From NCBI RefSeq assembly GCF_030013595.1, contig NZ_CP122768.1: 64,000 nt of DNA, one strand, 5' to 3'. Positions 7,643 through 10,384 of this stretch are shown piece after piece; position 1 is the first letter of the stretch, and the number at the start of each line of letters is the position of its first letter. The stretch is from Escherichia coli. Lineage in GTDB: Bacteria > Pseudomonadota > Gammaproteobacteria > Enterobacterales > Enterobacteriaceae. The notes below the pieces were generated by a model, which saw nothing but the letters and a program-made list of their open reading frames with translations, was not told where the DNA came from and did not search any database. The translations under genes and the position numbers were made by a program.

Positions 7643-7671
7643 AAACCCTCCCGGTAAAATTACTTATCAAC

Positions 7672-8214
7672 TCAAACAAAACCTGCCGCTTTCCTGCGTT
7701 CATATTCCTGTTTCAGCAACTCAATTGGAGTTGGCCCCGACGGGCGTTCTGGTGCTGCCAGTTGCCTACGGACGGGTGGAACACTCAGTCCGTTACCAAC
7801 ATGCTTTGCCCATTTCGCTAGTTGCCGTTCTGCAAGCCGTTTTAACTCCCCTTCGGTCATCTGGCGCTCAATCCCCTTTGAACGCAGCTCGAGACAAATG
7901 TGATACAGCACAGGCTGAGACCACGGGTATTTATCGCTTCCGTCGTATCGCCAGGACTCGTTGCGCCAGCGTCGGTACTCCTCCATCACGTTATCCACCG
8001 TCAGACCAAATGGATTTGCCCCGCTCTCCGAAATCAGCGCCACAAACTCAGCCAGGTCCGGAGGCCATGTTTCACCCGCCCGGCAGCGGTCCATGCACTG
8101 GCGGCAGACCTGCCGGATTTGCTGCTCAGTCATCGCGCCAATCTGTGCAATCCAGAGCTTCGAAGGTGCGGCCCCGTTCTTCTGGGTCCAGCGGTTCGAA
8201 TAAACCTCCCCCAT
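7672..8214 (-). CDS. replication protein P-like (helicase loader), start uncertain
   Basis: C-terminal half resembles lambda P (…YPW…ELKRLAERQLAKW…); the ORF extends to 8337 but that overlaps the O-like gene. Confidence 0.6.
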   Translation of the reverse strand: MGEVYSNRWTQKNGAAPSKLWIAQIGAMTEQQIRQVCRQCMDRCRAGETWPPDLAEFVALISESGANPFGLTVDNVMEEYRRWRNESWRYDGSDKYPWSQPVLYHICLELRSKGIERQMTEGELKRLAERQLAKWAKHVGNGLSVPPVRRQLAAPERPSGPTPIELLKQEYERRKAAGFV

Positions 8215-9166
8215 GAGTTCCCACAGCTTCCAGGCCGTTTCCGTCGCTGATAAATCCGTTTTCACGTTCCCACTGCTCACGTGCTGCCCGAATTTCCTGA
8301 ACTGCCCGTGATGCGGTGCCACCTGGTGCTGCTGCATGGTTTACCCCCTTGCTGACTGGTTTAACCTGTGCCCTGACGTGATTTACGTGACGGGCGAATT
8401 TCTGCTCCCACTGAACCTGCGTGAACACTTTGCCCTCATCGCTCCAGTAATCCCGGAATGCGGCAAGTTCAGCAGGTGTAAATTCCGGCTCCGGCAAAGC
8501 CATCCCCCACAACGCAGCCCGTCGTCGAAAATCCCGTGACGGATGCCAGCTATCGGTCATCGGAAATTTTCCGATGGGTTCGCTCAGGCCATCCAGGAAT
8601 ACGGGTGGCACTGCCTGTAACGACAAAACTTCCTGCTCACTGGTCGGAGCACTCTCGCGTGCGTTATGTGTGGGGTTTAGATCTTTGGGTTCCTTTGGGT
8701 TCCGTGATCCGTTTTTGGGTGTCTTTGATGGAAAATTTGGGTGTCTTTGGTTATTTTCCATGCAGCTAAGAGTTCCGTTTTTGGGTCTGTTTTGTGCTGA
8801 AACATAACCATTTTCGGTACTGTTTTTATTAACAGTACCAATTTTACCCACCTTTAAAGACTCCCGTTTTTGGGTGTATTCAGGCTCGGCAACACTTTCT
8901 TCTACACCGATAAGTCGGTACACCACAATTTGCTTTGTTCTGCCTTTTCTCTCACCGGTATCAACAATTAACCCAATCTCCATCAGGTGTCGTAAGCTGT
9001 CCTGCACAGTCTTTTTGTTCAGTTCCGTTACTTCTGCCAGTGCAGATACAGACGGGTATGCACACAAATCGGCACCGCACATATCAGCAAGCCAGGTCAA
9101 TACTGACTTACTGGATGAACTGCCGGTTTTCACCTTTTTAGCCCATCGTAGTGCATCGATACTCAT
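8126..9166 (-). CDS. replication initiator O-like protein
   Basis: N-terminal helix-turn-helix replisome-organiser region; iteron repeats embedded mid-gene as in lambda O. Confidence 0.65.
   Translation of the reverse strand: MSIDALRWAKKVKTGSSSSKSVLTWLADMCGADLCAYPSVSALAEVTELNKKTVQDSLRHLMEIGLIVDTGERKGRTKQIVVYRLIGVEESVAEPEYTQKRESLKVGKIGTVNKNSTENGYVSAQNRPKNGTLSCMENNQRHPNFPSKTPKNGSRNPKEPKDLNPTHNARESAPTSEQEVLSLQAVPPVFLDGLSEPIGKFPMTDSWHPSRDFRRRAALWGMALPEPEFTPAELAAFRDYWSDEGKVFTQVQWEQKFARHVNHVRAQVKPVSKGVNHAAAPGGTASRAVQEIRAAREQWERENGFISDGNGLEAVGTHGGGLFEPLDPEERGRTFEALDCTDWRDD
8684..8879. repeat. iteron-type replication origin within the O-like gene
   Basis: at least four copies of CCGTTTTTGGGTGTC-like units (8709, 8736, 8775, 8863), TTTGGGTTCC direct repeats, and an AT-rich palindrome GGTACTGTTTTTATTAACAGTACC. 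Confidence 0.65.
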
Positions 9167-9689
9167 ACGAACCCCTGGCAGACATTTGTTTATCTGCAAA
9201 GTAATATTGGTATTGCTGACGATACGCGTGCTTGAAAGCAATAGCTTTTTCTATAAGCTCGTCAGTCTCACGTTCCACAACAGCTGGATCCGCAAAAAGC
9301 AGCCCGGACTCCACCACATCGCCATATTCTTTGTTTAACCCGGCGATCATGTACGTAATGCTTTTTCCGTCAGTAATTTCACAATACAACCTGAAATCGC
9401 TGATCCGGATAGCCTCCATAATTGCCGGAATCAGCGCCGTGAATTTTTCCCGCTTATCCCTGGTGTCGATAGCTTTCCAGCGTTCGAATATCTTCACCCG
9501 GTTAACGCCCAGCGCCCGTTGATCAACCGCGCCATCATCAAACGTGACGCGTTGAACATCGATGTTCGGGCGTTCTTTCAGAGCCCAGAAGGCTTCCGTG
9601 ATTAATATCGTCGCCTGCTCCTGTGTCATTCCTGGTCGGCACACCCAGGCATCCAGAGCCTCACAAACCTGTTCAGGGGTGATTTTCAT
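9138..9689 (-). CDS. early-region protein in the cII position (YdaT-like?), 183 aa
   Basis: ORF between the cro-like gene and the O-like gene; weak recalled resemblance to YdaT-family proteins. Confidence 0.4.
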   Translation of the reverse strand: MKITPEQVCEALDAWVCRPGMTQEQATILITEAFWALKERPNIDVQRVTFDDGAVDQRALGVNRVKIFERWKAIDTRDKREKFTALIPAIMEAIRISDFRLYCEITDGKSITYMIAGLNKEYGDVVESGLLFADPAVVERETDELIEKAIAFKHAYRQQYQYYFADKQMSARGSYEYRCTTMG

Positions 9690-9900
9690 TGTTCAACCGC
9701 CCCGCCCGCTTTGCCTTACGATATTCGTCATAAACTTTGGGGTCGTACTGAAGTTCCCCGCCGGATGCCTCTTGCAGGCGCATCGCGCGACCTTCAGGAA
9801 CCAGTTCCCCCCATGCAGCAATGCTTGCCAGCCTAACTCCTGCGGCATTGGCAAGCTTTGTTTTGCTGCCAAAAAACGCTATAGCATCAATTTTCAACAT
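9673..9900 (-). CDS. dicC: DicC-like (Cro-type) repressor
   Basis: 75-aa protein close to DicC as recalled (…FGSKTKLA…AAG…LVPEGRAMRLQEASGGELQYDPKVYDEY…); divergent from dicA. Confidence 0.75.
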   Translation of the reverse strand: MLKIDAIAFFGSKTKLANAAGVRLASIAAWGELVPEGRAMRLQEASGGELQYDPKVYDEYRKAKRAGRLNNENHP

Positions 9901-9908
9901 ATCGAGCT

Positions 9909-9926
9909 CCTTAGATTTTCCTAAGG
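9909..9926. promoter_or_regulatory. palindromic operator CCTTAGATTTTCCTAAGG in the dicC-dicA intergenic region
   Basis: perfect 18-bp inverted repeat between divergent repressor genes; related CTTAGG half-sites at 9945-9975 and 10457-10509. Confidence 0.5.
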
Positions 9927-9976
9927 AAACTAGATCGTAGAGAAACCTAAGTCAAGAAAAATTAGAATTCCCTAAT

Positions 9977-10384
9977 ATGAAAAACGAAACCTTCGGTGCT
10001 CGCCTCTTACATAGGCGTAAAAAATTAAAACTGTCTCAGGCCGCATTAGGTAAGCTGGTCAAAGTGGCTCACGTAACAATTTCTCAATGGGAAAGAGATG
10101 AAACACAGCCGGCGGGGAAAAGATTATTCGCACTGAGCCAAGCGCTTCAGTGCTCACCGACTTGGCTTCTTTTTGGGGATGAAGATAAACAACCAGGCGA
10201 ACCGATCCCGGATAATCAGCCAGCCATTCTGACAGAAGATCAAAAAGAGTTACTTCAACTGTTCGACGCACTGCCTGAGTCAGAGCAAAAGGCCCTGTTG
10301 TCAGAGATGCGTGCTCGAGTTGAAAATTTCAACAAACTTTTTGAAGAACTACTCAAAGCTCGCAAAAGAAGCGCAAACAAATAA
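9977..10384 (+). CDS. dicA: DicA-like HTH (XRE family) repressor
   Basis: 135-aa protein close to DicA as recalled (…SQWER…FALS…LQCSPTW…FGDEDKQP…NFNKLFEELLKAR…). Confidence 0.8.
   Translation: MKNETFGARLLHRRKKLKLSQAALGKLVKVAHVTISQWERDETQPAGKRLFALSQALQCSPTWLLFGDEDKQPGEPIPDNQPAILTEDQKELLQLFDALPESEQKALLSEMRARVENFNKLFEELLKARKRSANK

What the first reader, a model, noticed from the sequence alone, without database searches (positions are those of the whole stretch)
8684..8879. Iteron-type origin embedded in the O-like gene
At least four copies of a CCGTTTTTGGGTGTC-like motif, additional TTTGGGTTCC repeats and a 24-bp AT-rich palindrome sit in the middle of the O-like coding sequence, the lambda ori arrangement. 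The preserved repeats suggest the replication module may still be functional.
Basis: partly seen in the sequence, partly recalled or inferred. Interest (0 to 1): 0.35.

Follow-up and report, generated by a model that had tools for sequence, protein, structure and literature searches.

The report
Iteron replication origin inside prophage initiator gene
The repeats are real and most likely form the replication origin of a lambda-like E. coli prophage, placed inside its own initiator gene as in phage lambda; this is an ordinary design, but here in an initiator family whose origin has not been described in the papers I could search.

Summary
All six TTTGGGT in the 64-kb window lie at 8684-8875 on one strand, in the middle of a 346-aa initiator gene (8126-9166, minus strand).

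The gene encodes a confident winged-helix N-domain, a disordered linker and a DnaT-like C-domain. A lambda-P-like loader gene follows. The repeats sit in the linker-coding part.

Read on the coding strand, the core is CCCAAAAACGG. The same core recurs 2-7 times, almost always on that strand and at the same gene position, in 8 of 10 phage relatives and a Klebsiella record with a homologous N-domain (Edwardsiella, Escherichia, Vibrio, Acinetobacter, Burkholderia hosts; 35-67% aa identity). Copies often fall in different reading frames, so selection acts on the DNA, not on a peptide repeat. The core is absent where the N-domain is replaced (Rac YdaU).

A mosaic junction falls exactly at the end of the repeat block (8684-8686).

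The 24-bp palindrome is real but imperfect in 46 of 52 distinct close relatives, so it is probably incidental.

The protein is not Pfam lambda O, and the AT-rich tract lies between iterons rather than after them.

Verdict: a lambda-type intragenic iteron origin, a new member of a known kind. Origin activity is untested.

The parts
8126..9166 (-). O-like replication initiator gene (346 aa): winged-helix N-domain, disordered linker, DnaT-like domain, C-terminal tail
   Evidence: ORF. Pfam DnaT domain at aa 201-267 (E 1e-17) and weak HTH_36. Best PHROG is phrog_1032 'replication initiation protein'. PGAP calls it 'DnaT-like ssDNA-binding domain-containing protein'. AF2 model.
8897..9166 (-). Coding region of the N-terminal winged-helix DNA-binding domain (aa 1-90), the presumed iteron reader
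   Evidence: AF2 pLDDT 94-98 with H-H-H-H plus a beta-hairpin wing. Foldseek matches winged-helix DNA binders. Homologues pass the HTH_36 threshold. Alignment A1 has an invariant DTGE..G.T motif.
8861..8877 (-). Iteron A, ACACCCAAAAACGGGAG on the coding strand (reading frame 1; partial dyad ACaCCC/GGGaGT)
   Evidence: No variable site in the motif (8864-8878) among 52 distinct close relatives; 8862, within this feature, varies in 9 of 52. Same position and frame in Edwardsiella phage EPP-1.
8799..8858 (.). AT-rich, least stable duplex segment (candidate unwinding element). It contains three degenerate iteron-like units: 8835-8849 GGGTAAAATTGGTAC, 8817-8831 TAATAAAAACAGTAC, 8805-8819 TACCGAAAATGGTTA.
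   Evidence: GC 0.28-0.35. Easiest-melting 0.8% of the window. The Klebsiella homologue has better-preserved iterons at this position. Unit coordinates.
8816..8839 (.). 24-bp palindrome GGTACTGTT-6-AACAGTACC, formed where two degenerate iteron-like units abut
   Evidence: Imperfect (AACAGCACC) in 46 of 52 distinct relatives and in loci L090 and L096. Absent from EPP-1 and the Klebsiella homologue.
8772..8788 (-). Iteron B, AGACCCAAAAACGGAAC (frame 0)
   Evidence: More variable among close relatives than iterons A and C.
8728..8744 (-). Iteron C', the AAATTT variant ACACCCAAATTTTCCAT (frame 2)
   Evidence: Equivalent AAATTT variants occur in EPP-1, LZ35, Bcep176, GF-2 and Ab105, and in lambda iteron 3.
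8706..8722 (-). Iteron C, ACACCCAAAAACGGATC (frame 0)
   Evidence: No variable site among 52 distinct close relatives.
8684..8703 (-). They are the local form of a family-wide GAAC(C/A) repeat that follows the last iteron. The mosaic junction lies at 8684-8686.
   Evidence: Copy number of 1 or 3 in relatives causes frameshifts. Homology to Rac-SA53 ends at 8686 and homology to EPP-1 begins at 8684.
8366..8566 (-). Coding region of the DnaT-like domain (aa 201-267)
   Evidence: Pfam PF17948. About 50% identical to E. coli DnaT residues 82-157 (PDB 4ou6, 6aep, 9zbt).
7672..8133 (-). Lambda-P-like helicase-loader gene (153 aa from the ATG at 8133, an 8-nt overlap ATGACTGA with the O-like stop). 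The open frame and the P homology continue upstream to 8337.
   Evidence: Pfam PF06992. phrog_109 'P-like helicase loader'. PGAP 'replication protein P'. Alignment with phiV10 P starts at aa 18 of the long ORF.
9138..10384 (.). Upstream control region: YdaT-like gene 9138-9689 (-), Cro/DicC-like gene 9673-9900 (-), divergent CI/DicA-like repressor gene 9977-10384 (+). Rightward early transcription would run through the origin.

Best explanation
Window 8684-8878 is the cis-acting origin of a lambdoid (Rac/DicA-type) E. coli prophage, embedded in the linker-coding part of its own initiator gene.

Proposed mechanism (all steps inferred). The winged-helix N-domain of the 346-aa initiator binds the same-orientation iterons. 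Their consensus is GAAnnnnCCC(A/G)AAAACGG(G). There are four strong copies (A, B, C', C) and about three decayed ones. Binding assembles an O-some-like complex on A-tract DNA and destabilises the adjacent easily melted DNA. The best candidate for melting is 8799-8858; the GAACC repeats at 8684-8703 are the alternative. The DnaT-like C-domain, probably together with the P-like protein encoded just downstream, then brings in host DnaB.

Shown here: the repeats, their position, their conservation at the DNA level, their linkage to the N-domain, and the domain architecture.
Inferred: binding, unwinding, helicase recruitment and origin activity.
For: 1. Anatomy. Six TTTGGGT are confined to 192 nt on one strand. 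They sit in the linker between a confident winged helix (pLDDT 94-98) and a DnaT-like domain. A P-like loader gene follows.

2. The repeats are not forced by the protein. Synonymous-codon shuffles never give six ACCCAAA (0 of 5000). Copies occupy frames 1, 0, 2 and 0.

3. Family conservation. With the motif defined from the window alone (up to 2 mismatches), relatives carry 2-7 copies at nt 260-470 of the gene, all on the coding strand except one palindromic variant in Ab105. These are EPP-1, phiV10, Vibrio Her, Acinetobacter LZ35 and Ab105, Bcep176, EBPR podovirus 1 and GF-2, plus a Klebsiella homologue. Flanks have almost none. With a relaxed pattern the density is 24-fold higher in the linker (the pattern was partly derived after seeing the data). 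Copies fall in more than one frame in EPP-1, Her, LZ35, Bcep176, EBPR1, GF-2 and the Klebsiella record.

4. Specificity linkage. Rac-SA53 YdaU has the same DnaT-like half (91.5% nt identity) but a DUF1376 N-domain, and it lacks the motif. The mosaic junction is at 8684-8686. The N-domain plus iteron block is combined with at least three kinds of C-terminal domain: DnaT, Phg_2220_C and lambda-O-C-like; several relatives have no Pfam hit there.

5. Link to lambda. Iterons such as phiV10's TCCC-AAAAACG-GGGA resemble lambda's TCCCTC-AAAACG-AGGGA, including an AAATT(T) variant copy. PHROGs 678 and 345 are hit by both N-domains. A published HHpred analysis places lambda O's N-terminus in HTH_36 (PMC5509034). 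In lambda and Stx phages, iterons in mid-O are the experimentally proven origin (PMC7466680).

6. The domesticated chromosomal homologue DopC has the same architecture, and its authors report no iterons in it. This fits the repeats serving the replicon rather than the protein.
Against: - There is no binding or replication experiment for this module or for any family member in the literature I could search.
- The AT-rich tract is not where lambda has it, and its position is not conserved among relatives.
- The palindrome is not conserved.
- Two N-domain relatives lack the core: Mcat8, which has other long repeats, and BS46.
- phiV10 and Ab105 have all copies in one frame, so in those genomes a peptide-repeat reading is not excluded.
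- The window's own HTH_36 score is below Pfam's threshold (20.8 against 25 bits).
- PPompW prophages with a 97.9% identical gene are described as defective, although they excise.
Confidence: 0.75

Rival explanations
1. The repeats are initiator-binding sites, but they serve autoregulation or a transcriptional roadblock within the early operon rather than origin firing. The true origin would lie elsewhere in the prophage.
For: All the evidence that the sites are read by the N-domain fits this equally well. No AT-rich tract follows the array as it does in lambda.
Against: In every characterised lambda-type system the mid-gene iterons are the origin. No second cluster of the motif exists in the 64-kb window. 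The least stable DNA of the gene is inside the array. Phages with 38-54 kb genomes keep the array in the same place.
Confidence: 0.1
2. The repeats only reflect a low-complexity peptide repeat (PKNG-type) in a flexible linker, produced by in-frame duplication, and have no function as DNA.
For: Frame-0 copies encode PKNG or PENG. In phiV10 and Ab105 all copies are in frame, and spacings are often multiples of 3. Given the protein sequence alone, three or more near-matches to the 11-mer arise in 7% of synonymous shuffles.
Against: The same DNA core is kept in two or three reading frames in seven genomes, giving unrelated peptides such as TQKRE, PKNG and HPNFP. The trailing GAAC(C/A) repeats are conserved as DNA while their peptides differ completely, for example QNQSYNQSY against HRTVGTVENS. 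Six ACCCAAA never arise from the protein sequence alone. DopC is reported to lack the repeats.
Confidence: 0.05
3. The block is mainly a recombination or slippage hotspot at a module boundary, kept similar between phages by repeated exchange rather than by selection for binding.
For: A mosaic junction lies exactly at 8684-8686. The copy number of the 10-bp unit varies, producing frameshifts.
Against: Recombination cannot keep an 11-nt core alike between phages of Burkholderia, Acinetobacter, Vibrio and E. coli whose surrounding DNA is unalignable (no blastn match to phiV10). The extended consensus has invariant positions across 37 copies.
Confidence: 0.05

Closest known systems
Phage lambda ori with the O and P genes (and the 6-iteron origins of Stx phages 933W and P27)
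   Same: Same-orientation iterons sit in the middle of the initiator gene, in the linker between an N-terminal DNA-binding domain and a C-terminal domain. A P-type helicase-loader gene lies immediately downstream, and the cI/cro-type control region upstream. The iteron design is similar: C-rich arm, A-tract, CG, G-rich arm, with one AAATT(T) variant copy.
   Different: The initiator does not hit Pfam Phage_rep_O, and BLASTP against lambda O is not significant. The C-domain is DnaT-like, not lambda-O-C. The iteron core is about 3 nt shorter. The AT-rich tract lies between iterons, not after them. Conserved GAAC(C/A) repeats follow the array instead.
DopC/DopE of Cellvibrionales and Oceanospirillales and their mobile-element relatives (Brezellec et al. 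2017, PMC5509034)
   Same: The two-gene architecture is identical: an HTH_36 N-domain plus DnaT C-terminal motif, followed by a PF06992 P-like protein.
   Different: DopC is a domesticated chromosomal gene in which the authors found no iteron-like sequences. The prophage gene here carries a full array.
Rac prophage YdaU with its downstream replication gene (phage Rac-SA53)
   Same: The DnaT-like C-terminal half and the P-like gene are 91.5% identical at the nucleotide level (window 7647-8686). Gene order is the same, with dicA/dicC/ydaT-type neighbours.
   Different: YdaU has a DUF1376 N-domain and no CCCAAAAACGG array. Its linker carries other inverted repeats.
Initiator genes of phiV10, EPP-1, GF-2, Vibrio H20-like phages (Her), Acinetobacter Obolenskvirus (LZ35) and Bcep176
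   Same: They have a homologous N-domain (35-58% aa in tblastn), the same iteron core and strand, the same position in the gene, and the same trailing GAAC(C/A) repeats.
   Different: Copy number (2-7) and spacing vary. The C-terminal domain and partner gene differ: P-like, DnaB-like helicase or DUF6475. None of the records examined annotates an origin.

Membership tests
Lambda-type intragenic iteron origin | Three or more direct repeats in one orientation inside the initiator gene | tested here: met
   Four strong copies and about three degenerate copies, all on the coding strand, at nt 290-461 of a 1041-nt gene.
Lambda-type intragenic iteron origin | Repeats lie in the linker between the N-terminal DNA-binding domain and the C-terminal domain | tested here: met
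   aa 96-161 lie between the winged helix (aa 1-90, pLDDT above 94) and the DnaT-like domain (aa 201-267). The linker has pLDDT 39-54 and essentially no secondary structure (one 4-residue helix, aa 99-102).
Lambda-type intragenic iteron origin | Iterons co-inherited with the N-terminal (specificity) part of the initiator | tested here: met
   Mosaic junction at 8684-8686. The array is absent with a DUF1376 N-domain and present with at least three kinds of C-domain.
Lambda-type intragenic iteron origin | AT-rich unwinding tract directly following the iteron array | tested here: not met
   The least stable DNA (8799-8858) lies between iterons A and B. The DNA after the last iteron is about 50% GC. 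The position of minimum GC is not conserved among relatives.
Lambda-type intragenic iteron origin | P-type helicase-loader gene immediately downstream | tested here: met
   PF06992 and phrog_109 hits. PGAP names it 'replication protein P'. The genes overlap by 8 nt.
Lambda-type intragenic iteron origin | Initiator binds the iterons, and the fragment supports replication | not testable with these tools
   No experiment was found for this family.
Lambda O protein family (Pfam PF04492 Phage_rep_O) | Significant match to the Phage_rep_O model | tested here: not met
   No hit at E <= 0.01, whereas lambda O scores 123 bits. BLASTP against lambda O gives E = 2.8. Only indirect links exist, through phrog_678 and phrog_345 and published HHpred.
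HTH_36 + DnaT_C O-like initiators (phage relatives of DopC) | N-terminal HTH_36 (PF13730) winged helix | tested here: met
   The window protein scores 20.8 bits, below the 25-bit cut-off. Its homologues (73% to 39% identity in alignment A1) score 29-49 bits, and the AF2 and Foldseek results show a winged helix.
HTH_36 + DnaT_C O-like initiators (phage relatives of DopC) | C-terminal DnaT DNA-binding domain followed by a PF06992 gene | tested here: met
   PF17948 at E 1e-17. PDB DnaT chains at E 1e-19 to 3e-16. P-like gene downstream.
Rac YdaU family (DUF1376 + DnaT) | DUF1376 N-terminal domain | tested here: not met
   Rac-SA53 YdaU hits DUF1376 at 91 bits; the window protein does not.
Iteron-plasmid Rep proteins (Rep_3 / RepA-type tandem winged helices) | Match to a plasmid Rep family model | tested here: not met
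   Only a sub-threshold RP-C N-terminal hit (16.5 against 24.4 bits). No plasmid Rep appears among the Foldseek top hits.

The most novel reading that the evidence does not exclude
HTH_36-type phage initiators across Gamma- and Betaproteobacteria share one bipartite origin design that has not been described.

- The first part is an array of CCC(A/G)AAAACGG iterons. Lambda's own iteron would be a version expanded by about 3 nt.
- The second part is a conserved element immediately downstream: 2-4 GAAC(C/A) units spaced about 10-12 nt apart.

The second element is kept whatever C-terminal domain or helicase partner the initiator has. It could be the true loading or unwinding site, or an array of iteron half-sites. 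The N-domain plus origin cassette would then be a portable specificity module that recombines with at least three kinds of helicase-recruiting domain at a fixed junction.
Probability: 0.3. Interest if true: 0.5.

Novelty: new member of a known kind. Interest (0 to 1): 0.3.

Why it matters
The module is common: 907 of 5,426 complete E. coli genomes carry it, with up to four copies per genome, including O157:H7, O26, O111, O103 and O145 STEC. Current annotation names only a 'DnaT-like ssDNA-binding protein' and no origin.

Knowing the origin and its specificity determinant has three uses.
- It predicts which co-resident prophages can activate each other's replication in trans. This bears on prophage-prophage interactions in STEC.
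- It explains why frameshifts at the 10-bp repeat disable the module.
- It gives a simple sequence signature, the CCCAAAAACGG array after an HTH_36 domain, for annotating origins in phages of several genera.

Conceptually it extends the lambda paradigm rather than overturning it.

Tried and rejected
- **Wider locus sampling.** The search for related loci on IMG/VR with the N-domain alignment returned only the 80 best hits, all 94-100% identical E. coli prophages. They served for population variation but not for diversity, so I took diversity from annotated phage records instead.
- **Direct similarity to lambda O.** BLASTP was not significant. Only profile-level links exist.
- **Host-factor sites.** No DnaA-box or IHF consensus occurs in 8400-9300.
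- **The palindrome as a conserved element.** Rejected: it is imperfect in most close relatives and absent in more distant ones.
- **Natural mini-replicons as proof of autonomy.** An 8.46-kb circular record, pZ1323HEC0067-2, consists only of this early region. A sister record of 15.6 kb has the cro-like, ydaT and O-like genes all frameshifted. Assembly artefacts cannot be excluded, so I did not use these records as evidence.
- **Literature.** Ten full-text searches found no description of this iteron. Motif-string hits were all Cas13a direct repeats. Subscription-only papers, such as the epsilon15 and phiV10 genome papers, were not searchable.
- **Locating the module in O157 Sakai.** I guessed coordinates in order to link it to published prophage-replication data. 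The guess failed: the region fetched was Sp13, a P2-like prophage.
- **Protein database search.** The search for homologous proteins with the 95-aa profile listed only short or partial proteins. They were usable as an alignment for structure prediction but not for a survey of domain architectures.

Full report
**1. What is in the sequence**

The interval 8684-8879 lies inside a 1041-nt ORF on the minus strand (8126-9166, 346 aa). On the coding strand the repeats read as follows.
- Iteron A: ACACCCAAAAACGGGAG, 8861-8877.
- Iteron B: AGACCCAAAAACGGAAC, 8772-8788.
- Iteron C', an AAATTT variant: ACACCCAAATTTTCCAT, 8728-8744.
- Iteron C: ACACCCAAAAACGGATC, 8706-8722.
- An exact tandem pair GGAACCCAAA, 8684-8703.

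The palindrome GGTACTGTT-6-AACAGTACC is at 8816-8839.

All six TTTGGGT heptamers of the 64-kb window fall within these 192 nt on one strand. I permuted synonymous codons while keeping the protein and codon usage. Six ACCCAAA never appeared in 5000 trials, and three exact copies of any 11-mer appeared 3 times. The stretch 8799-8858 is the least stable duplex of the gene and lies in the easiest-melting 0.8% of the window.

**2. The gene and its neighbours**

Pfam finds a DnaT DNA-binding domain at aa 201-267 (E 1e-17) and a sub-threshold HTH_36 at the N-terminus. It finds no Phage_rep_O. The C-domain is about 50% identical to E. coli DnaT residues 82-157, which have solved structures.

An AlphaFold model built on a 78-sequence alignment gives three regions.
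- aa 1-90: a very confident winged helix, pLDDT 94-98.
- aa 91-200: low confidence and almost no secondary structure.
- The DnaT-like domain: moderately confident.

Foldseek matches the N-domain to winged-helix DNA binders such as Lrs14-like, AspA, TubR, MarR and ArsR proteins. The repeats encode aa 96-161, so they lie in the predicted disordered linker.

Downstream is a lambda-P-like gene, supported by PF06992, phrog_109 and PGAP's name 'replication protein P'. Upstream are a YdaT-like gene, a Cro/DicC-like gene and a divergent CI/DicA-like gene.

The closest deposited phages are the PPompW prophages of STEC O145:H28, at 97.9% identity. The N-terminal half with the repeats is found in 907 of 5,426 complete E. 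coli genomes.

**3. DNA element or peptide repeat?**

The copies in the window occupy frames 1, 0, 2 and 0 and encode unrelated peptides: TQKRE, PKNG, HPNFP, PKNG.

I then examined ten phage genes whose N-domain is homologous (35-58% identity in tblastn) and a Klebsiella record (67%). The motif, defined from the window alone and allowed up to 2 mismatches, recurs in most of them.

| Genome | Copies |
|---|---|
| Edwardsiella phage EPP-1 | 5 |
| Escherichia phage phiV10 | 7 |
| Vibrio phage Her | 6 |
| Acinetobacter phage LZ35 | 2 |
| Acinetobacter phage Ab105-2phi | 2 |
| Burkholderia phage Bcep176 | 4 |
| EBPR podovirus 1 | 5 (in the linker) |
| Edwardsiella phage GF-2 | 4 (in the linker) |

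The Klebsiella homologue has 4 copies under the relaxed pattern.

The copies are on the coding strand, apart from one palindromic variant in Ab105, and lie at nt 260-470 of the gene. Flanks carry almost none. Under the relaxed pattern, copies fall in two or three frames in EPP-1, Her, LZ35, Bcep176, EBPR1, GF-2 and the Klebsiella record.

Aligning 37 copies gives an extended consensus, nAAnnnnCCC(A/G)AAAACGG, with invariant positions.

After the last iteron every member has 2-4 GAAC(C/A) units spaced about 10-12 nt apart.
- Window: GGAACCCAAA, 2 units.
- phiV10: AACCAGTCATAT, 3 units.
- Her: GAACCAGTCAT, 2 units, in two frames.
- Bcep176: GAACAGTAG, 4 units.

The peptides these units encode are unrelated.

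Two relatives lack the core: Mcat8, which carries other long repeats, and BS46.

**4. Linkage to the N-domain**

Rac-SA53 YdaU shares the DnaT-like half and the P-like gene with the window at 91.5% nt identity (window 7647-8686). It has a DUF1376 N-domain and no array. In the other direction, window 8684-9173 aligns with EPP-1 at 67% nt identity.

The junction therefore falls exactly at the end of the repeat block. The N-domain plus array is combined with DnaT-like, Phg_2220_C and lambda-O-C-like C-domains, and several relatives have no Pfam hit there. This is the behaviour expected of a specificity cassette: a DNA-binding domain together with its sites.

**5. Relation to lambda**

Lambda's four iterons read TCCCTCAAAACGAGGGA and similar, with one AAATTG variant. 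They lie mid-O and are followed by an AT-rich tract. They are the proven origin in lambda and Stx phages (PMC7466680).

The present core has the same parts with a spacer about 3 nt shorter, for example TCCCAAAAACGGGA in phiV10. It also has an AAATT(T) variant copy.

BLASTP between the two initiators is not significant. However, PHROGs 678 and 345 are hit by both N-domains. Brezellec et al. (PMC5509034) report by HHpred that the N-terminus of lambda O is an HTH_36 domain. The same paper describes DopC/DopE, chromosomal descendants with the same architecture as the pair here (HTH_36 plus DnaT_C, then P-like), and states that no iterons are detectable in dopC.

**6.

- The palindrome is perfect in only 6 of 52 distinct close relatives; the majority have AACAGCACC. 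It is missing from EPP-1 and the Klebsiella homologue.
- In the Klebsiella homologue, the region that corresponds to the window's AT-rich tract holds well-formed iterons. The window's tract contains three decayed iteron-like units. The palindrome is therefore best read as a by-product of two abutting decayed units.
- No AT-rich tract follows the array, and the position of minimum stability is not conserved across the family. Where unwinding starts is an open point.

**7. Is the module functional?**

The O-like and P-like ORFs are intact and of standard length. Iterons A and C are invariant among 52 distinct close relatives. Some relatives are inactivated by loss or gain of one 10-bp unit.

PPompW prophages excise after mitomycin C treatment but are otherwise described as defective. 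No replication data exist for the module, so 'may still be functional' is plausible but untested.

**8. Verdict**

This is a lambda-type intragenic iteron origin in an initiator family (HTH_36 winged helix plus DnaT-like domain) for which I found no published description of the origin. It is a new member of a known kind and of modest interest. The family-wide conservation of the iteron core and of the trailing GAAC(C/A) repeats is the one result that goes beyond the expected.

Noticed in passing
window 8126-8337: The 221-aa ORF 8337..7672 aligns with phiV10 P from its residue 18. P-type homology therefore begins about 50 codons upstream of the annotated P start (8133 or 8094). It overlaps the last 70 codons of the O-like gene in another frame. 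That O tail is itself conserved in a Klebsiella homologue. This may be a 212-nt dual-coding overlap, or a remnant of an older gene boundary.
   Followed up: partly
window 8684-8703; L090:1501-1600: The 10-bp tandem unit TTTGGGTTCC varies in copy number. E. coli 07_3636 has one copy, which splits the initiator gene (a PGAP pseudogene). One IMG/VR relative has three copies. Slippage here frameshifts the gene.
   Followed up: yes
L096 (NZ_CP148379.1, 8,461 bp circular) and L098 (NZ_CP148543.1, 15,643 bp circular): These small 'plasmids' consist only of this prophage early region (CI-like, Cro-like, YdaT, O-like, P-like and a few neighbours) with no other replication gene. If real they would be lambda-dv-like. 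In L098 the cro-like, ydaT and O-like genes are all frameshifted, which suggests long-read errors or assembly artefacts.
   Followed up: partly
L004:1909-1944; L005 (Her initiator gene nt ~468-505); L007:1942-1977: The short repeats right after the iteron array are conserved as DNA across hosts: AACCAGTCATAT x3 in phiV10, GAACCAGTCAT x2 in Vibrio phage Her in two frames, and AGAACAGTAGGAACAGT x2 in Bcep176. Their role is unknown.
   Followed up: partly
window 8680 and 8706; the same positions in L003, L004 and L097: GATC (Dam) sites flank the GAACC repeats in the enterobacterial members (and the sequences). They are absent in the Acinetobacter and Burkholderia members. This may be chance.
   Followed up: no
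L002:3593-3646: Rac-SA53 ydaU, which has a different N-domain, carries its own inverted repeats in the equivalent linker region (TGTTCAAACA / TGTTTGAACA and a 16-nt pair). They could be that lineage's origin sites.
   Followed up: no
L093 (Edwardsiella phage GF-2, gene 1429-2271): GF-2 combines this N-domain and iteron array with a C-terminal region resembling lambda O's C-domain, followed by a P gene. It is a natural hybrid of the two initiator types, matching phrog_391.
   Followed up: partly
window 8600-8617: Most E. coli genomes match the query only from window 8611 onward. In the one relative aligned (L090) the sequence differs upstream of about 8617. This suggests a second mosaic boundary about 70 nt downstream of the repeat block.
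   Followed up: no
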